A stretch of DNA of 15,952 nucleotides from a virus (lineage: Duplodnaviria > Heunggongvirae > Uroviricota > Caudoviricetes). Positions 1 through 9,873 of the stretch are shown here, piece after piece. The first letter of the stretch is position 1. Each line of letters begins with the position of its first letter. Location: positions 1-15,952 of the IMG/VR virus record IMGVR_UViG_2874920711_000013. One strand, 5' to 3'. The notes under the pieces were generated by a model. That model made no database searches. It worked only from the letters and a program-made list of their open reading frames with translations, and had not been told where the DNA came from. Made by a program: the position numbers and the translations under genes.

Positions 1-1199
1 TCAGGCCGGCATATACCTCAGCAGACTGATATCCCGCGCGTTTTTCTTCAGCCCCTCCACATTCAGTCCCGCGATGGCCCGGCGGTATACCATCCGGCCG
101 CCACACAGCACGCATTCAAACGGGTCACGACTCAGGAACTGCTTCACCATTTGTGCATAGCACACCTTCGCCACCGGTGCCGGTTTATCCATCCCCAGAG
201 CACGGTACACCTGCGGCAGCTTCTCTCCACACACCCGGTTGGCAAGGAACCCGAAGTACCTCACCATCTTAAAAAACTTCTCCGGGATGTGCTGTTTCAG
301 CCTCGCGACCAGCTCACGCTGTGTCAGCGTTTCCGTCGCCGTTTCTCCCGTTTTGTGGTCCAGGTAACGGAAGCTCAGGCTCGCCCCTCCGTTGTAATGT
401 GCCAGCCGGGAGGCCGCTATCGGCGGCTTCTTCAGATAACGACCCAGGTAGCGCGCCGTATTCCTCCCGCCGGCCGTTTTTTTCGACATGTACACATGCC
501 AGTATTTTCCTCCGGCTTTCAGCACCAGGCTTCTCCTCTGTGATTCCGTCGTGATATGTGACAACGACTCCGGCATCGCCAGCCCTCTGACCACGCTTTC
601 AGAAGCCGTTGCCGCATATTCCACATCCACCGCGAACGCATCGCGTCTTTCAGGAAGCTCAGCTTTTTCCACTGACCATGCTTATTCAGATCTCCACAGG
701 TTACAGACACATGTACATGCGGATGCCAGTTGAGACGACGGCCATACGTGTGGATGGCGCAGAAGATACCGGGTTCCTGCCCCCGTTTCCGGGCGGCATA
801 CAGCAGATTCTCCACCGCCAGACGGCACACGTCATTCAGCAGCCACCGGTTGCTTTCGAACACCGGCCACAGCGTGTCCGGCAGGGTGAAGACCAGGTGT
901 ACCCAGTCGCAGTCAGGAAGACGATTCAGCTGTGTCGCTATCCACAGGTCTGTGGCCTTTTTTCCGCAGGACGGGCAGGCACGGCTGCCGCATGAGTTAG
1001 TGACGTATCTGACGTGGGGGCACTCAGGTTTATCGCAGTTGTATTCCTTCACGCCCAGTATCCGCGTGCCGCAGGCCAGCATTTTGGTGACAGCCTCAAC
1101 CTCGATATCGCGCAGACCGCCCGCATCCAGGAAGGATGTCCAGCACTGGTTGGCCGTGAACAGACGTTTCAGCGGGCGGGGAGTAAAAGCGGACAACAT
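1..1199 (-). pseudogene. IS91-family (HUH-Y2 rolling-circle) transposase, split across two frames (N-part 519..1199, C-part 1..672); C-terminus runs off the window start
   Basis: N-part has a Cys-rich zinc-binding motif (CPHVRYVTNSCGSRACPSCGKK) and the HUH motif (NWHPHVHV). C-part has the YxxxYxxK two-tyrosine motif (ARYLGRYLKKPP). The two frames are reconciled by restoring one base in the C-run at 583-585. Confidence 0.8.
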
Positions 1200-1208
1200 G
1201 AGGACGGA

Positions 1209-1397
1209 TTAACCCCCGGTATCCTGTAGCCGGGTAAGGGCTGCTGTGTCGCCACGGCGCTCCAGGATGGAGGCCGCGACCATCGCAGGTGGTGGGTCCA
1301 TGGGTTTGAGCATCTTCATCCAGTCCCATTCACGTTGTGAGAGCTTCTCAGCACCAACAGAGAGCAGAACGGTATCTATACTTTTGCGGGTCAACAT
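1209..1397 (-). CDS. hypothetical 62-aa protein immediately upstream of the IS91-family transposase
   Basis: ORF from the six-frame track only; no convincing Shine-Dalgarno and no recognisable motif. Confidence 0.25.
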   Translation of the reverse strand: MLTRKSIDTVLLSVGAEKLSQREWDWMKMLKPMDPPPAMVAASILERRGDTAALTRLQDTGG

Positions 1398-1603
1398 AAG
1401 AGGATGAGTCCTTAATAAAACAGGTCCTCAGAGCATACATATTCTGCGGAGCGTGCGGCAACAACAGGACGAACAGGGGCGGTTTTCAATTTGCAGCCGT
1501 CAGGCTGCCGTGGTTCTATCTGATGTAGTTCTTACAGGCTTCAGAGTATAGGGTCAGGAGATATTCTGGAGTATTAATTGGCATTTCCGTGAAAATATCA
1601 CGT

Positions 1604-1665
1604 ATTGATAGCTTTTCATCTTCTGTGATTTGCGGGCAAATCACAGAAGGTAGTTATCTATCAAT
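1604..1665. repeat. 62-bp composite palindrome: ATTGATAG-N8-CTTCTGTGATTTG-CGGG-CAAATCACAGAAG-N8-CTATCAAT
   Basis: Read directly: 13-bp perfect inverted arms (1620-1632 / 1637-1649) around a 4-nt centre, flanked at equal 8-bp spacing by 8-bp inverted arms (1604-1611 / 1658-1665). A second inverted TTGATA/TATCAA pair lies at 1801-1806 / 1828-1833. Confidence 0.8.
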
Positions 1666-1834
1666 AATATATTTATTAATAGGCAATCGCCTGAAAATAC
1701 TCTACTTGAATAATTTCTGGTACTTACCTATTAATAAGTAGTTCATTGATTGGTTTTCACCCAAAATTATTTGGGCCAAATATTTATAGATGTTTTCCGA
1801 TTGATAATAACAAAAAAACGGCAATATCTATCAA

Positions 1835-1872
1835 CAAAAAAAAGCAGATCCCGGTCAATCAGGATCTGCTTT
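1835..1872 (-). terminator. intrinsic terminator downstream of the P4-type integrase (bidirectional hairpin)
   Basis: 8-bp stem GCAGATCC / GGATCTGC (1844-1851 / 1862-1869) with a 10-nt loop. The minus-strand transcript has a U8 tract after the stem (plus-strand A-run 1835-1842). Confidence 0.6.
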
Positions 1873-1903
1873 TCCAGTTTTAATGATTTACGCTATTTCT
1901 GAT

Positions 1904-3165
1904 TCAGGCTGCCTTATGCTGCCGCGCATAAATGTACGGCGCGACATACCCCTCGCGGCACACATCCAGATAATCCGACCACCACTGCATCATGGCCTTT
2001 CTGGCCTCCAGATGCTCTGCTTTATGCACATATGCCGCCCGCACGCTGTTGCGCTCCTGGTGGCTCATTTGCCGCTCCACCGTATCGCGTGACCACAGGT
2101 CCGACTCCACCAGGGCGCTACAGGCCATTGCCCTGAGTCCATGCCCACAGACTTCAGTTTTCGTATCATACCCATCAGACGCAGCGCCCGGTTGGTGGTG
2201 TTTTCACTCATTGGCTTGTACGGATTATGGTCGCCGGGAAACACCAGATCCAGATGGCCGGAAAGCTCCTGTATCTGTTTCAGAATGGCAATCGCCTGGC
2301 GGGAGAGCGGCACGATATGCGGGGTACGCATTTTTGCGCCACGCCCCGAAAACCGTACTTTATCAATTGCCTCGCGGGTGGCGGGAATGGTCCAGATTTT
2401 GTGCCTGAAATCGATCTCGCTCCAGCGGGCGAAACGCAGCTCGCTGGAACGGATAAACAGATGCAGCGTCAGCCCCACCGCCAGCCGGGTTAACTCCCGG
2501 CCCTGCCGGTAGTCGCCAATGCGGCCAAGCAGTTCAGGCAATCGCTCCAGCGGTAAAGCGGGATAGTGATTCTTTACGGGTGAGGCGACAACGCCATCCA
2601 GATGCTGCGCCGGATTGCTTGCGGTCAGTCCCTGCTGAACGGCATAGCGCATGATGTTGCTGAGTTGCTGCCGGGTTCGGGACGCGACTTCCAGGAAGCC
2701 TTTATCCTCAATAATCAGCAGTAAAGCCGTGAAATCCTGCGTTTTAAGCGTGGCAACGGGCAGATGACCAATCGCCGGGAAGATATGGTTTTCCATACTG
2801 GCGAGAATACGGGCGGCATACTCAGCCGACCATTTTTTGTTGGTTTTGTGCCAGGCCAGCGCCACCGCCTTAAAGCACTTTTCAGGGGAGCAGGCTGCTT
2901 TCTCTGCCATGCGCTGCTGCGCCGGGTTGATATTCTGCGCCAGTAACTTACGGATACCGTCGCGCTGCTGCCTGGCTTCTGCCAGTGAGGCCAGCGGATA
3001 TGCGCCAAGACTGACTCTGGATTCTTTTCCGTTGAAACGATATTTGCGATACCAGATGCGTGAACCGCTCGGATTGACGAGCAGATACAGACCGTGAGAG
3101 CCGGAGAGTTTTACCGGACGGGAAGAGGGTTTTAACTTGCGGATTTTAGAATCGTTTAAAGACAT
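1904..3165 (-). pseudogene. P4-type tyrosine integrase (DUF4102 N-terminus plus phage-integrase catalytic domain), interrupted by one frameshift
   Basis: N-terminus MSLNDSKIRKLKP...GLYLLVNPSGSRIWYRKYRF is typical of P4-like integrases; ATG at 3165 with GGAG upstream. The catalytic C-terminus (HGLRAMACSALVES...SHQERNSVRAAYVHKAEHLEARK) is in another frame (1904..2182). The frames are reconciled by one extra base in the C-run at 2171-2173. The gene sits beside the 3' side of tRNA-Asn in the same orientation. Confidence 0.85.
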
Positions 3166-3326: not shown

Positions 3327-3402
3327 TGGCTCCTCTGACTGGACTCGAACCAGTGACATACGGATTAACAGTCCGCCGTTCTACCGACTGAACTACAGAG
3401 GA
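3327..3402 (-). tRNA. asnT: tRNA-Asn (anticodon GUU)
   Basis: 76-nt sequence on the minus strand, TCCTCTGTAGTTCAGTCGGTAGAACGGCGGACTGTTAATCCGTATGTCACTGGTTCGAGTCCAGTCAGAGGAGCCA, matching the E. coli Asn tRNA with encoded CCA. The asnT name comes from its position next to mtfA. Confidence 0.95.
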
Positions 3403-3502: not shown

Positions 3503-4300
3503 TTAATGAACATTCGTCGCCGAAAACGAGTCTGTATCATTAGCGTGATGCAGTCTCTGCAAAGGATCTTGTTGATAAAATTGGCAGAAACGTTGCCACA
3601 ATGAAGGGAAACGAGGAGCAAAAAGTTCTGGGGCGCTAAAGAAATATTCAGAAAGTACGGCAAAACATTCAGCAGGATCGCTGGCAGCATAAGCATCAAT
3701 GCTCGCCGCATTCTCGCCAACTAATTCGATTTCTTCCTGAATGTTGTTCATTGCAGCATGAAGATCGTGTTCCCAGCCAGCAACCTCACGCAACGGAATA
3801 AAGGGAACTCCGCTGGCGCGATCGCCGTTACGGGTGTCCAGCTTATGAGCGACTTCATGAATAATCAGGTTAAAACCAGAAGCATCAAAAGAATCTTGTA
3901 TATCCAACCAGTTCAAAACGATAGGCCCTTGCTGCCAGCTCTGACCTGACTGAACAATACGTTGGTTATGCACCAGACCGATATCGTCTTCCCATTCATC
4001 ATCGACCACAAATGGCGCAGGATAAATTAAGACTTCATGAAAACCATCCAGCCATTCCAGTCCTAACTCCAGAACGGGTAGGCAAAATAGAAGTGCTATC
4101 CGGCAGCTTCTTAATGAATCCAGTTCAAAGCTCTGTAAAGGAACAAGCCGCTTTTGCTGTAAAAAACGTTCGGCAAGAGTGACTAATTTGCTTTGTTCCT
4201 GTTCCGTCAGACACGTTAAAAGGGGGAACGATAGTGCTTCCTGCCAGGGAAGGGCAGTTTGATGTGCTGATTCTTGTACTTTCCAGGGCCACTTAATCAT
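3503..4300 (-). CDS. mtfA: MtfA (Mlc titration factor A; zinc-dependent peptidase family), 265 aa
   Basis: Protein begins [23 protein letters not shown] and contains the HEVAH zinc-binding motif. It lies between the Asn and Ser tRNA genes, as mtfA does in E. coli K-12. Confidence 0.9.
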
Positions 4301-4393
4301 CGTTTTGCTCGCAAACTCGTCACTTGAACAAAATTGCACGGACAGGGACTGTTAAAATGCCAAATTTCTTGGCATCATGGCAACCATCTGAAC

Positions 4394-4483
4394 GGAGAGA
4401 TGCCGGAGCGGCTGAACGGACCGGTCTCGAAAACCGGAGTGGGGGCAACTCCACCGGGGGTTCAAATCCCCCTCTCTCCGCCA
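4394..4483 (+). tRNA. serU: tRNA-Ser (anticodon CGA), class II tRNA with long variable arm
   Basis: 90-nt sequence GGAGAGATGCCGGAGCGGCTGAACGGACCGGTCTCGAAAACCGG...GGTTCAAATCCCCCTCTCTCCGCCA; anticodon loop CU-CGA-AA. Confidence 0.95.
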
Positions 4484-8163: not shown

Positions 8164-9177
8164 TTAGGATAAGTGCAAAAATAGCGGCGCGGGAATAGTC
8201 CAGAATACCCGGGTTGCACGAAGTGCTGCGGACCATTCTTTGAACGGACTTTCTTTTTTCAGGACTACTTCTTTTGCGCGACGATAAACGCTGCCCGGAA
8301 TTTCATAAATATTAAAATCCATCGGAAGTGTGGCTGCTGCAATCTCCACATCCAGTGTGTCGAGGGTGTGTACTAAATTCGGATTGCGATCGGTTTTGTT
8401 CCCACCGCCAGCATTAGCACCGGAAGCCGTGCGGGTGATGCGTGAAACACGATTTCCTTTCATCCACTCTTTTGTCAGCAGACCCCGATCAGTGTAGTCA
8501 GCGTCCAGGTATGCTTCGAAAAAAGCAGTTATTAGTCCCAGGTCTGAATTACCAGGATTAGGGAAAACTTTGTCAGTGTCACGAACCAGTTTGTGGAGGT
8601 CGCGAATCTCCAGCGAGTCGAGCAGACTGGTTTTATGCGAAATAGCCAGGGCAGTAACAGCCGGTAGTTCTTCAGCCCGTGCAATGTGTAATGCCTGGAG
8701 TTCGTCGCGTGAAACGTGCGTTACTGGTTTTTCGCTGCCGTGTTGAGCAAGCCAACGAATGGGCAGTTCCTGACCGGAGACAGGTAGAAGCATGCTCTCC
8801 TCAATCTCAGTCATGTCTTCGCCGTTGATGTTGGTATTATCAGTGCTGGCTGATTTGTCCTGAACAGAGGGGGAAGGGCCGATAAATGTCATTGTGATGC
8901 CATCTTTCCCGCCTTTTTCATAGCGGTTGCAGAATTCAGTATCAAACACGCCTTCTGGCGGAAGGTCGTCAACAACGGGCAAATTGACGCGGACGGGTTT
9001 TTTAAAGTCGTCTTCATCATAATCGTTGTCATCCATTGCGGTAATGCAGCGGGAGATTGCAACAGATAATTTTTTTGCTGTAGTCCAGTAAAAACCACCT
9101 TTAATTCCTAGGCGTTTTCTTACTTTGACATTTTTTGCTTCGCAATATAGTGCAAATTCTTCTTTATCAGTGCTCAT
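8164..9177 (-). CDS. prophage protein of unknown function, 337 aa; possibly the N-terminal part of a larger exonuclease protein
   Basis: Long ORF with ATG at 9177. It occupies the ydfE-like position after ydfD in a Qin-type gene order. It is in the same frame as the exonuclease ORF. Confidence 0.6.
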
Positions 9178-9820: not shown

Positions 9821-9873
9821 AGGGCGGCAGAGCAGTCACGGAGTAAAACTGATACCGCCAAACGTCACCAGAA
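9821..9873 (-). ncRNA. dicF: DicF small regulatory RNA (Hfq-dependent antisense RNA, ftsZ inhibitor)
   Basis: Minus-strand sequence TTTCTGGTGACGTTTGGCGGTATCAGTTTTACTCCGTGACTGCTCTGCCGCCC followed by a T-run (9816-9820). The terminator hairpin is GGCGG...CCGCC. Identification is from my recollection of the DicF sequence. Confidence 0.8.

What the first reader, a model, noticed from the sequence alone, without database searches (positions are those of the whole stretch)
1604..1833. 62-bp two-tier palindrome and paired TTGATA half-sites in an AT-rich non-coding block between the P4-type integrase and the IS91-family element
The nested, equally spaced inverted repeat (8-bp outer arms, 13-bp inner arms, CGGG centre) is too regular to be chance. 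It could be a binding site for a dimeric regulator with two recognition elements, a DNA or RNA hairpin, or the hairpin-bearing end of the adjacent rolling-circle IS91-family element. It lies upstream of that transposase, where such an end would be expected. No ORF of 60 aa or more covers the ~500-bp block; the few I translated by hand were about 20-30 aa and unconvincing.
Basis: seen in the sequence. Interest (0 to 1): 0.5.

Follow-up and report, generated by a model that had tools for sequence, protein, structure and literature searches.

The report
Island palindromic repeat unit, not IS91
The 62-bp palindrome is real, but it is not an end of the neighbouring IS91-type element: it is the best-preserved copy of an undescribed family of 64-bp hairpin-forming repeat units that sit between a relaxase-like recombinase gene and the integrase gene in small tRNA-inserted mobilizable islands, here left behind as a relic.

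Summary
The nested palindrome at 1604-1665 is confirmed and is far beyond chance. The IS91 reading is refuted. The IS ends at 1516, 88 bp away, and other copies of the IS lack the palindrome. The palindrome also occurs in 481 E. coli genomes next to a tRNA-linked integrase with no IS present.

It is one of three tandem 63-64-bp modules in the window (1603-1666, 1674-1736, 1744-1806).

In intact relatives these modules lie only in the gap between a 294-aa PF12834+PF12835 tyrosine recombinase and the convergent integrase. PF12835 is the signature used for the SGI1 relaxase MpsA. All modules share the recombinase's orientation.

The inner helix covaries strongly: 13 of 15 pairs change on both sides. 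The outer arms are a conserved 10-bp motif, not a helix. Orthologous modules are more conserved than synonymous sites.

No Rfam family or paper searched describes them.

Best reading: DNA-level hairpin or cruciform modules with a flanking protein-recognition motif, belonging to the island's mobilization side. The main rival is an RNA terminator or 3'-UTR hairpin.

In this window both the integrase and the IS transposase are frameshifted, so the unit is a relic.

The parts
1603..1666 (+). Module c: the 64-bp palindromic unit that is the finding. End motifs TATTGATAG / CTATCAATA, T-rich sub-terminal stretches, 13-bp inner arms 1620-1632 / 1637-1649, loop CGGG.
   Evidence: Covariance-model hit of 74.0 bits on + against 50.4 on -. 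Orthologues in L001-L005, L090 and L093.
1572..1602 (+). Partial left part of a module-d-like unit (TATTAATTGGCATTTCCGTGAAAATATCACG), directly abutting module c.
   Evidence: Direct repeats D1/D3 with 1674-1699. The same arrangement is duplicated in L001 at 8836-8959.
1674..1736 (+). Module d: a 63-bp unit with intact end motifs (TATTAATAGG / CCTATTAATA) and a decayed inner palindrome.
   Evidence: (I1). Model hit of 37.7-38.8 bits.
1744..1806 (+). Module e: a 63-bp unit whose palindrome has decayed (fold z about -1.5).
   Evidence: Model hit of 58.1 bits. Orthologues with perfect palindromes in L003, L006, L017, L019, L044 and L092.
1826..1835 (+).
   Evidence: D2. Conserved as CCTTTCAATA / CCTCTCAATA in relatives.
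1840..1873 (.). Bidirectional terminator-like hairpin (AAAAGCAGATCC ... GGATCTGCTTTT) directly 3' of the integrase. It has a strong T-run on the - strand.
   Evidence: (I5). Identity of 92-100% between genera.
1517..1905 (.). Surviving integrase-proximal remnant of the island's recombinase-integrase intergenic region. The rest, including the recombinase gene, lies beyond or was lost at the IS insertion.
1..1516 (-). IS91-family element. It holds the transposase (frameshifted by a 1-nt deletion near 583), a 62-aa ORF at 1209-1397, its own terminal hairpin GCAGCC-GTCA-GGCTGC at 1493-1508, and its end ...GGTTC at 1516.
1904..3165 (-). P4-type integrase pseudogene, frameshifted near 2143-2173.
3327..3402 (-). 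tRNA-Asn (GTT), the integration site of the island.

Best explanation
Shown. The palindrome is module c, the best-preserved of three tandem 63-64-bp palindromic units that are native to the genomic island, not to the IS. This module family occurs only in the non-coding gap between two convergent genes of small tRNA-integrated islands. One gene is a 294-aa tyrosine-recombinase-fold protein (Pfam PF12834 + PF12835). The other is the island integrase.

Each unit has four parts:
- a conserved 10-bp end motif, TATTnATnGG;
- a T-rich stretch;
- a central perfect palindrome, whose sequence is free but whose complementarity is kept;
- a second T-rich stretch followed by the inverted end motif.

Inferred. 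The units act at the DNA level as hairpin or cruciform elements. This could be on supercoiled duplex DNA, or on the single strand that exists during conjugative transfer. A protein of the island's mobilization side recognises the flanking end motifs, so recognition is structure-plus-motif, as at integron attC sites or relaxase hairpins.

The 294-aa protein belongs to the Pfam family that one published classifier uses as the signature of MpsA, the SGI1 tyrosine-recombinase-type relaxase (MOB_M). The island is therefore most likely an integrative mobilizable element.

In this window the IS insertion has cut off the recombinase side and the integrase is frameshifted. The unit is therefore an inactive relic.

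Sub-probabilities:
- native island module and not an IS91 end: about 0.95;
- under selection in intact islands: about 0.7;
- DNA-level structure rather than RNA: about 0.5;
- a role in mobilization or recombination specifically: about 0.3.
For: IS boundary and independence from the IS:
- The IS boundary lies at 1516 in three contexts.
- The similarity search splits into an IS-only part and an island-only part.
- 481 of 5426 E. coli genomes carry 1517-1905. It is always chromosomal and always beside a tyrosine recombinase.

Architecture:
- The order recombinase -> gap <- integrase <- tRNA is seen in E. coli, Salmonella, Atlantibacter, Entomohabitans, Kluyvera, Citrobacter and others.
- The recombinase matches PF12834 + PF12835.

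Module census:
- 43 distinct module sequences were collected, 33 of 64 bp and 10 of 63 bp, in tandem with 6-7-bp spacers.
- In 907 kb searched with a covariance model, every hit with E<0.01 lies in that gap. The recombinase-sense strand scores 20-35 bits higher than the other strand.
- In 2.9 million viral contigs the only true modules are again in this context.

Structure:
- Inner helix: 91.5% of cells are paired and 13 of 15 pairs change on both sides. The covariation score is 0.459, against 0.167 in shuffles (0 of 500 reach it) and 0.08-0.14 in the slid controls.
- Relative to the window copy, the L090 orthologue has three adjacent compensatory pairs.
- Outer arms: only 77.6% of cells are paired, with no covariation. 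They behave as a motif, not a helix.

Constraint: orthologous modules are 84-98% identical where third codon positions of the adjacent gene are 70-80% identical.

DNA rather than RNA:
- Of 15 internal stem mismatches only 2 are G.T and 3 are A.C.
- Double changes include transversion pairs.
- One module (L003/L004 4242-4305) has been symmetrised into a perfect 31-bp-arm palindrome, a template-switch signature.

Link to the mobilization side: the modules and terminator travel with the recombinase when the integrase is a different one (32-35% identity, at tRNA-Lys and tRNA-Asp).

Literature:
- PF12835 is the signature used for SGI1 MpsA (PMC10484663).
- MOB_M relaxases are often annotated as integrases, and 96% lie near an integrase (preprint 10.64898/2026.01.13.699239).
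- oriTs of SGI1-type islands (MpsA relaxase) are stem-loop arrays whose structure is conserved despite sequence divergence (PMC8409611; PMC6414798).
- Intact islands also carry the Rfam motif STAXI, which Rfam's text suggests may act as single-stranded DNA (PMC12370729).
Against: - No experiment or transcript data were available, so hairpin or cruciform formation and protein binding are inferred only.
- The modules are absent from many close relatives whose gap is only 190-260 bp (L010, L015, L018, L042, L060, L144-149). They are therefore not essential to the island's basic functions.
- In characterised MOB_M systems the oriT lies upstream of the relaxase gene, not downstream.
- On the recombinase-sense strand each hairpin is followed by a T-rich tract. 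In Salmonella-type islands the first module starts 26-27 nt after the stop codon. Both fit an RNA terminator.
- The wobble test rests on only 15 mismatches.
- Membership of the 294-aa protein in MOB_M rests on a shared Pfam family.
Confidence: 0.45

Rival explanations
1. RNA-level element. The modules are hairpins in the 3' untranslated region of the recombinase mRNA. They would act as weak factor-independent terminators, as 3'-end stabilisers, or as insulators between the convergent recombinase and integrase transcripts, much as REP/BIME units do.
For: - All modules lie in the sense orientation of the recombinase.
- On that strand only, each hairpin is followed by (G/C)TTTCCT, and the terminator scan flags the modules.
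- In Salmonella-type islands the first module begins 26-27 nt after the stop codon.
- Stems covary and loops vary.
- RNA folding energy is -28 kcal/mol, z about -8.
- SGI1's mobilization module is known to need a small RNA (PMC9299015).
Against: - Stems are A/U-rich and the U-tract is short and interrupted.
- There is almost no G.U: 2 of 15 internal mismatches, and 9 of 375 helix cells.
- The conserved 10-bp end motifs and the fixed 64-bp length are not explained.
- In E. coli-type islands the modules lie 850-1200 nt beyond the stop codon.
- A strong bidirectional terminator already closes the gap.
Confidence: 0.3
2. Function-less local palindromic minisatellite. The units spread by tandem duplication and unequal crossing-over. 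Their arms are kept complementary by intrastrand template switching (quasipalindrome correction), without selection.
For: - Whole units are gained and lost exactly at unit boundaries.
- Collapsed units that have lost the palindrome occur in L043 and L052.
- One unit is symmetrised to perfect 31-bp arms.
- Loop sequences are inverted between orthologues (GGGG versus CCCC/TCCC).
- The units are absent from many relatives.
- Modules d and e are decayed in pseudogenised E. coli islands.
Against: - Orthologous modules are clearly more conserved (84-98%) than third codon positions of the neighbouring gene (70-80%) and than the adjacent repeat region (75-90%). Arm-to-arm conversion alone does not lower the substitution rate (reasoning).
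- End motifs, T-rich asymmetry and the 63-64-bp length are kept across genera.
Confidence: 0.15
3. Terminal hairpin (terIS-type end) of the adjacent IS91-family rolling-circle element.
For: It lies upstream of the transposase and is a hairpin; this is position only.
Against: - The IS sequence ends at 1516 in three unrelated insertion sites, and the flanks diverge immediately after GGTTC.
- Hundreds of IS copies match only 1402-1516.
- The palindrome is present in 481 genomes without the IS at that place.
- The IS has its own small terminal hairpin at 1493-1508.
Confidence: 0.01
4. Classical double-stranded operator. One dimeric regulator reads both the outer and the inner inverted repeats sequence-specifically.
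For: - The window copy has perfect two-tier symmetry.
- A Ner/SfsB-like HTH gene belongs to intact islands.
- The outer motif is conserved.
Against: - The inner palindrome is a different sequence in every module type, although all share the end motifs.
- The outer half-sites are 55 bp apart centre to centre.
- The region lies between the 3' ends of convergent genes, not at a promoter. Promoter-like sites are not above the shuffled expectation.
Confidence: 0.07

Closest known systems
Integron attC sites (folded single-strand substrates of the tyrosine recombinase IntI)
   Same: Short conserved inverted end motifs bracket a central palindrome of free sequence but conserved complementarity. An unpaired spacer lies between the end box and the inner stem. 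The length is similar (attC 57-141 bp). Sites occur in arrays and have strand-specific asymmetry, and a tyrosine-recombinase-fold gene lies next door (features of attC from my own knowledge).
   Different: No gene cassettes lie between the units, only 6-7-bp spacers. The end motif is TATTnATnGG, not RYYYAAC/GTTRRRY. The outer arms do not pair consistently. The neighbouring enzyme is a PF12835 protein, not IntI, and no attI is present. Recombination at these units is untested.
oriT stem-loop arrays of MOB_M (tyrosine-recombinase-type) relaxases: SGI1 MpsA/oriT, pIGRK MobK/oriT
   Same: An inverted-repeat-rich non-coding region lies next to a tyrosine-recombinase-fold mobilization gene. In SGI1 relatives the oriT stem-loop structure is conserved despite sequence divergence (PMC8409611). 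The pIGRK oriT combines inverted repeats, direct repeats and a G-rich tract in AT-rich DNA (PMC8152469). The gap studied here likewise has a conserved G-run core and direct repeats.
   Different: Known oriTs lie upstream of the relaxase gene; these modules lie downstream. The SGI1 oriT is GC-rich whereas these modules are 25-35% G+C. The modules are absent from many family members. No nic site is known, and no sequence similarity was found to plasmids.
REP/BIME extragenic palindromic units
   Same: Palindromic units clustered in tandem in extragenic DNA between convergent genes. An effect on transcript 3' ends is possible (REP features from my own knowledge).
   Different: They are not dispersed through the genome. 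They are confined to one intergenic region of one island family. The unit is 64 bp with its own end motif. There is no associated RAYT transposase.
STAXI (RF01728) and EFASI (RF02957) motifs
   Same: Conserved structured nucleic-acid motifs of the same islands, defined by association with 'XerDC-type integrase' genes. STAXI is suspected to act as single-stranded DNA (Rfam text quoted in PMC12370729). Both are found upstream of the 294-aa recombinase gene in intact relatives.
   Different: Place (upstream rather than downstream), sequence and structure all differ. The modules match neither model, nor any other Rfam family, even at E up to 10.
IS91-family element ends (oriIS/terIS)
   Same: A hairpin close to the upstream side of an IS91-family transposase gene.
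   Different: It lies outside the element by 88 bp, is absent from other copies, and is present without the IS.

Membership tests
IS91-family terminal sequence | The sequence lies within the DNA shared by independent copies of the element. | tested here: not met
   Copies in three unrelated sites share sequence only up to window 1516. Hundreds of copies match only 1402-1516.
IS91-family terminal sequence | It co-occurs with the IS91-like transposase in other genomes. | tested here: not met
   481 E. coli genomes carry 1517-1905 beside an integrase and without the IS. No complete genome in the collection has this junction.
Integron attC | Conserved R''/R' boxes (RYYYAAC ... GTTRRRY) at the ends. 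| tested here: not met
   The ends are TATTnATnGG ... CCnATnAATA.
Integron attC | Sites separated by gene cassettes, with an IntI integrase and an attI site. | tested here: not met
   Units are 6-7 bp apart. The neighbouring proteins are PF12834+PF12835 and a P4-type integrase.
Integron attC | A variable central region with conserved complementarity (folded hairpin). | tested here: met
   13 of 15 inner pairs change on both sides and 91.5% of cells are paired.
Integron attC | Recombined as a folded single strand by the tyrosine recombinase. | not testable with these tools
   This needs recombination or binding assays.
REP/BIME | Hundreds of copies dispersed in extragenic regions of the chromosome. 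| tested here: not met
   Every copy lies next to the island recombinase/integrase, with 1-4 places per genome. The model census finds none elsewhere in 907 kb.
Any Rfam 15 family (including STAXI, EFASI, C4, isrK) | The covariance model scores at or above the gathering threshold. | tested here: not met
   There is no hit on 1400-1950 of the window. At E up to 10 in L001, and E up to 1 in L019, only chance microRNA/snoRNA hits appear in the gap.
Intrinsic (factor-independent) terminator | A stable hairpin followed directly by a T/U-rich tract on the transcribed strand. | tested here: inconclusive
   The consensus scan flags the modules on the + strand. However, the stems are A/T-rich and the tract is short and interrupted (GCTTTCCT; in the window AGTTATCT). 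No transcript data are available.
oriT of a MOB_M relaxase | It lies next to a MOB_M (tyrosine-recombinase-type) relaxase gene. | tested here: inconclusive
   The neighbouring gene in intact islands is PF12835 (E 6.7e-60), the signature used for MpsA (PMC10484663). The MOB_M profile and the MpsA/MobK sequences could not be compared directly.
oriT of a MOB_M relaxase | It lies in the first large intergenic region upstream of the relaxase gene. | tested here: not met
   The modules lie downstream. The upstream region holds STAXI, EFASI and a separate covarying 20-bp-arm hairpin.
oriT of a MOB_M relaxase | It is required in cis for mobilization and contains a nic site. | not testable with these tools
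   This needs mating assays and nick mapping.
Tyrosine-recombinase core site (dif/lox type) | Two inverted binding elements of about 10-13 bp around a 6-8-bp central region. | tested here: inconclusive
   Junctions between adjacent modules have this geometry (for example CTATCAATA-ATATATT-TATTAATAGG at window 1658-1683). They show no similarity to the dif XerD arm, and solitary modules lack a partner. Cleavage is untested.

The most novel reading that the evidence does not exclude
The 64-bp modules are structure-specific folded-DNA sites. They would combine a conserved end box, an unpaired T-rich spacer and a free-sequence hairpin. The island's PF12835 tyrosine-recombinase-type relaxase, or a partner protein, would read them on the single strand produced during conjugative transfer. 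They could serve as priming, termination or recombination signals. That would be an attC-like hairpin array outside integrons and a new cis element of the MOB_M class of mobilizable islands, which remains little studied.
Probability: 0.15. Interest if true: 0.75.

Novelty: new variant of a known kind. Interest (0 to 1): 0.4.

Why it matters
For this window the result is mostly corrective. The palindrome says nothing about how the IS91-type element moves. It marks the stump of a small Asn-tRNA island whose integrase is frameshifted and whose mobilization half was cut off by the IS.

More generally, the unit belongs to a repeat family that is covarying, fixed in length, strand-asymmetric and apparently under selection. 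It sits beside a tyrosine-recombinase-fold gene of the family now being recognised as the commonest chromosomal relaxase type (MOB_M). The cis elements of that class are almost unknown.

If the modules prove to be folded-DNA or protein-recognition sites, they would give a handle on how such minimal islands are processed. If they are only RNA terminators or a neutral minisatellite, they are an ordinary curiosity.

Tried and rejected
- IS91 end: rejected.
- Known RNA family: none found at Rfam gathering or permissive thresholds, in the window, in L001 or in L019.
- Small protein or type I toxin: there is no ORF of 60 aa or more. The short ORFs through the palindrome are mirror artefacts and differ between the duplicated copies.
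- Integrase arm-type sites or att site: the module end motif is absent near the tRNA/att ends. In Salmonella L006 the 20-bp direct repeat that delimits a 5.5-kb island lies elsewhere.
- CTGG(C/T)GCAG repeats as an element-wide polar motif: inside genes they are simply Leu-Ala/Val-Gln codons in the sense strand. Only the non-coding copies are real repeats.
- Promoter reading of TTGATA as a -35 box: promoter-like sites are not above the shuffled expectation and are not conserved.
- CRP, FNR, IHF, DnaA-box and dif similarity: judged by eye against consensus sequences from memory. The spacing or key positions do not fit. Only a few modules contain a good DnaA-box-like TTATCCAC(A/C), in L020 and L021.
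- Similarity of the left end to the R388 nic region: not shared by other modules, so treated as chance.
- Plasmid or phage homologues of the gap: none, apart from a mis-labelled Salmonella chromosomal fragment.
- OX345322 'plasmid' as a possible circular form: it is only a linear draft contig.
- Direct comparison with MpsA/MobK: pIGRK is not in the collection, the preprint has no supplement text, there is no PDB relative, and the homologue names are uninformative.
- EARL/ROD21 island paper: it says nothing about this region.
Full report
1. THE OBSERVATION

The window reads, from 1603: TATTGATAG CTTTTCAT CTTCTGTGATTTG CGGG CAAATCACAGAAG GTAGTTAT CTATCAATA.
- 8-bp outer arms at 1604-1611 / 1658-1665;
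- 8-nt unpaired stretches on each side;
- 13-bp inner arms at 1620-1632 / 1637-1649;
- a CGGG loop.

The repeat finder returns the same feature (I2). Either strand folds into the nested hairpin:
- As DNA: -16.2 / -16.6 kcal/mol, z about -9.
- As RNA: -28.1 / -26.4 kcal/mol, z about -8 to -9.
- None of 200 shuffles folds as well.

No dinucleotide shuffle of the whole window (200) reaches a 13-bp perfect arm. One of 2000 shuffles of the AT-rich block does, and none gives the nested outer arm. The block has no ORF of 60 aa or more.

2. IT IS NOT PART OF THE IS91-FAMILY ELEMENT

A similarity search with 1400-1905 against 5426 complete E. coli genomes splits cleanly.
- Query positions 3-117 (window 1402-1516) match hundreds of plasmid and chromosomal places.
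- Query positions 118-506 (window 1517-1905) match a different set of chromosomal places, next to a tyrosine recombinase.
- No record holds both parts.

Three IS copies in unrelated sites share the sequence up to ...GCAGCCG(T/C)CAGGCTGCCGTGGTTC and diverge immediately afterwards. The sites are a plasmid, the chromosome near mdtL, and a second plasmid.

The element therefore ends at window 1516, 88 bp from the palindrome. It has its own small terminal hairpin at 1493-1508.

The island part alone (1517-1905) is found in 481 genomes at 737 places. All are chromosomal, beside a tyrosine recombinase, and carry no IS.

In this window the transposase carries a 1-nt deletion near position 583. The integrase is frameshifted near 2143-2173.

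3. WHAT THE SURROUNDING DNA IS

Island layout. In E. coli ATCC 8739 and other genomes the sequence continues leftwards into a 0.7-1.4-kb unannotated region. That region ends at a 294-aa gene annotated 'integrase domain-containing protein'. This gene converges on the P4-type integrase that sits next to tRNA-Asn.

The 294-aa protein.
- It matches Pfam PF12834 (E 1.5e-39) and PF12835 (E 6.7e-60).
- In my reading of the alignment it keeps the tyrosine-recombinase catalytic residues.

Distribution.
- A scan of one genome per species returned 80 loci in Enterobacterales, often several per genome.
- At least 20 of them show the same layout: recombinase -> gap <- integrase.
- In Salmonella serovar India a 20-bp direct repeat of the tRNA 3' end delimits a compact 5.5-kb island.

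Related motifs. Intact relatives carry known Rfam motifs upstream of the recombinase gene:
- EFASI, directly upstream;
- STAXI, a few hundred bp further upstream;
- isrK and C4, upstream of a 153-aa ORF and a Ner/SfsB-like HTH gene.

What the protein family is known for.
- PF12835 is the signature that one published classifier uses for MpsA, the atypical tyrosine-recombinase-type relaxase of SGI1 (PMC10484663).
- MpsA, MobK of pIGRK and TcpM of pCW3 are the three described members of the MOB_M class (PMC6414798, PMC8152469).
- A 2026 preprint reports that MOB_M relaxases are the commonest relaxases in chromosomes. It also reports that they are often annotated as integrases and that 96% lie near an integrase.

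On this basis I infer that the island is a small integrative mobilizable element. I could not compare the protein directly with MpsA or MobK, or with the published profile.

4. THE PALINDROME IS ONE UNIT OF A MODULE FAMILY

Contents of the gap. The gap always holds three things:
- a conserved purine-rich core with several G-runs (...TAAGGGTAACAGCGCCAGACCGGAAARGGCCAAAGGGC...);
- several CTGG(C/T)GCAG repeats;
- a bidirectional terminator-like hairpin directly 3' of the integrase, which is window 1840-1873.

One sub-lineage (Escherichia, Salmonella, Atlantibacter, Entomohabitans, Buttiauxella, some Citrobacter) has in addition tandem units of 63-64 bp separated by 6-7 bp.

Anatomy of a unit, in order:
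- the end motif TATT[GCA]AT[AC]GG;
- a T-rich stretch (GTTTTC);
- a central palindrome with 12-17-bp arms and a 0-4-nt loop;
- a second T-rich stretch (G/C TTTCC);
- the inverted end motif CC[TG][AC]T[TC]AATA.

I collected 43 distinct module sequences, 33 of 64 bp and 10 of 63 bp.

Modules in the window. The window holds three units:
- module c (1603-1666), which is the finding;
- module d (1674-1736);
- module e (1744-1806).

It also holds a partial d-like left end (1572-1602) and a solitary end motif (1826-1835). TATCAA' pair is the right end of module e plus that solitary motif.

Census with a covariance model. The model was built from 25 modules and searched over 907 kb of loci.
- Every hit with E<0.01 lies in the recombinase-integrase gap.
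- The score on the recombinase-sense strand is 20-35 bits higher than on the other strand.
- The window hits score 74, 58 and 38 bits.

In 2.9 million viral contigs the only genuine modules lie again in this context. No similar DNA exists in the phage collection. In the plasmid collection the only match is a mis-labelled Salmonella fragment.

5. WHAT IS CONSERVED, AND HOW

The inner helix.
- It is a different sequence in each module type. Examples are CTTCTGTGATTTG, ACCCCAAATTATTTG, TACAAAAAATTTTG, GAAAAAATTTCTAC and CCTGATGATATTTGA.
- It nevertheless stays complementary: 91.5% of cells are paired and 13 of 15 pairs show changes on both sides.
- The covariation score is 0.459, against 0.167 for shuffles (0 of 500 reach it) and 0.08-0.14 for the slid controls.
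- The orthologue of module c in an island at tRNA-Lys (L090) differs from the window copy by three adjacent compensatory pairs.

The outer arms. These are perfectly complementary in the window copy, but they are not a conserved helix.
- Only 77.6% of cells pair.
- Positions 5, 8 and 10 usually mismatch.
- There is no covariation.
They behave as two inverted copies of a degenerate 10-bp motif.

The T-rich sub-terminal stretches. These lie on the same strand at both ends, so the unit is asymmetric.

Constraint. Across six loci from Salmonella, Atlantibacter, Entomohabitans and E. coli MS20657:
- orthologous modules are 84-98% identical;
- third codon positions of the adjacent recombinase gene are 70-80% identical;
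- the neighbouring repeat region is 75-90% identical.
This points to constraint in intact islands.

Instability.
- Whole units are gained and lost at unit boundaries.
- Some units have lost their palindrome (L043, L052).
- One unit has been converted into a perfect 31-bp-arm palindrome (L003/L004).
- Loop sequences are inverted between orthologues.
These are signatures of slippage and intrastrand template switching.

Distribution. Many close relatives have a gap of only 190-260 bp with no modules. The modules are therefore accessory.

The modules and the terminator accompany the recombinase when the integrase is a different one. That integrase is only 32-35% identical and the islands sit at tRNA-Lys and tRNA-Asp. 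The modules therefore belong to the mobilization side of the island.

6. MECHANISM

Two readings fit most of the data.

(a) DNA level: hairpin or cruciform modules whose end motifs are read by a protein. In favour:
- pairing is almost exclusively Watson-Crick;
- among 15 internal mismatches only 2 are G.T and 3 are A.C;
- double changes include transversion pairs;
- the end motif is conserved at fixed spacing;
- junctions between modules have the 10-7-10 geometry of tyrosine-recombinase core sites;
- the element probably passes through a single-stranded stage and already carries a motif suspected to act as single-stranded DNA (STAXI).

(b) RNA level: hairpins in the recombinase 3' UTR acting as weak terminators or stabilisers. 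In favour:
- all units are in the sense orientation;
- the T-rich tract follows the hairpin on that strand only;
- the terminator scan flags them;
- in Salmonella-type islands the first unit starts 26-27 nt after the stop codon.

Against (b):
- the stems are A/U-rich;
- the U-tract is interrupted;
- the end motifs and the fixed length are unexplained;
- there is no wobble signature.

A third reading, a neutral minisatellite, is weakened by the conservation excess. I favour (a) at about 0.45-0.5, (b) at about 0.3, and the neutral reading at about 0.15. None of this can be settled without transcript mapping and binding or mobilization assays.

7. COMPARISON WITH WHAT IS KNOWN

The closest analogues in how the unit may work are:
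- integron attC sites;
- relaxase or oriT stem-loops;
- REP/BIME units.

The unit fails the defining features of each as a family member:
- it has different end boxes, no cassettes and no IntI;
- it lies downstream rather than upstream of the relaxase-like gene;
- it is not dispersed through the genome.

It matches no Rfam family. None of the papers I searched describes it. I therefore class it as a new variant of a known kind: a structured non-coding repeat associated with the recombination/mobilization module of a mobile island.

8. VERDICT

- Observation: confirmed.
- IS91 interpretation: refuted.
- Hairpin interpretation: supported for the inner palindrome only.

In this window the unit is a relic of a decayed island. 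Interest is moderate (0.4). The window copy itself is inert. The family it belongs to, however, is an undescribed, covarying and constrained cis element of a class of mobilizable islands that remains little studied.

Noticed in passing
window 1-1199 (- strand), near 583: The IS91-family transposase gene has a 1-nt deletion relative to an intact 400-aa copy (L088, 94% identical). It therefore reads as two overlapping ORFs (1-672, 519-1199) and is a pseudogene.
   Followed up: yes
window 1493-1516: The true end of the IS91-family element has its own small hairpin, GCAGCC-GTCA-GGCTGC, followed by CGTGGTTC. The element ends on GTTC in all three contexts examined.
   Followed up: partly
window 1904-3165 (- strand), near 2143-2173: The P4-type integrase next to tRNA-Asn is frameshifted. 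The same gene is a pseudogene (internal stop or frameshift) in many E. coli copies of the island, but it is intact in O145, MS20657 and Salmonella.
   Followed up: partly
L002 1621-1664; L003 1328-1371; L005 945-989; L009 3748-3790; L012 4077-4119; L015 3370-3413; L056/L063 3867-3911, and others: About 0.7-1.2 kb upstream of the 294-aa recombinase gene lies a perfect hairpin with 20-21-bp arms. Its base is conserved (TCTCCCG...CGGGAGA in many copies) and its interior is wholly variable. It is followed by the conserved sequence AGACAAGCG(A/C)AGCGCG(G/T)CAG. This is a hairpin-plus-flank arrangement like a relaxase nick region, and a candidate oriT. It is not present in the window.
   Followed up: partly
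L006 3207-3333 and 3555-3684; L019/L020 4766-4895; L010, L015, L002, L090: Intact islands carry the Rfam motifs STAXI and EFASI just upstream of the 294-aa recombinase gene. They also carry isrK plus C4 (P4/P1-type immunity RNAs) upstream of a 153-aa ORF and a Ner/SfsB-like HTH gene. The 'integrase' in the names of STAXI and EFASI is thus probably this PF12835, MpsA-like protein.
   Followed up: partly
L010 5879-6028; L006 4990-5139; L001 8572-8721, and 12 other loci: The gap has a strongly conserved purine-rich core with four or five G-runs (...GGGTAAAGGG..TAAGGGTAACAGCGCCAGACCGGAAARGGCCAAAGGGC...). It is flanked by CTGG(C/T)GCAG repeats in direct and inverted orientation. It is more conserved between genera than synonymous sites. 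It may be a G-quadruplex-type element like the G-rich tract essential in the pIGRK oriT. It is lost from the window.
   Followed up: partly
L003 4242-4305 and L004 4415-4478: One module has become a perfect palindrome with 31-bp arms. Even the normally asymmetric T-rich stretches are symmetrised. This is a clear template-switch (quasipalindrome correction) event.
   Followed up: no
L150-L159 3796-5885; L008 6138-6420: The slot downstream of the recombinase gene can carry cargo. Some E. coli islands hold a reverse transcriptase plus AAA_21 ATPase pair (defence-system-like). A Serratia island holds an ORF of about 95 aa.
   Followed up: no
L006 1377 and 6893 (also 7563): In Salmonella serovar India a 20-bp direct repeat, AATTTGGCTCCTCTGACTGG, delimits a 5.5-kb island. 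A third copy and a second PF12834-type gene on the other side of the tRNA suggest tandem or neighbouring islands.
   Followed up: no
window 1500-1509 and 1904-1913: An exact 10-bp repeat, TCAGGCTGCC, lies at the IS end and at the integrase stop-codon region. It is probably chance.
   Followed up: no
window 3503-4339, 4394-4483, 9822-9873: Beyond the tRNA-Asn lie a 278-aa ORF at the position where relatives (L003-L005) annotate mtfA (not tested in the window), tRNA-Ser(CGA) and a lambdoid-type prophage segment with a DicF RNA (76.7 bits). The window therefore corresponds to the asnT-mtfA-serU region of E. coli.
   Followed up: no
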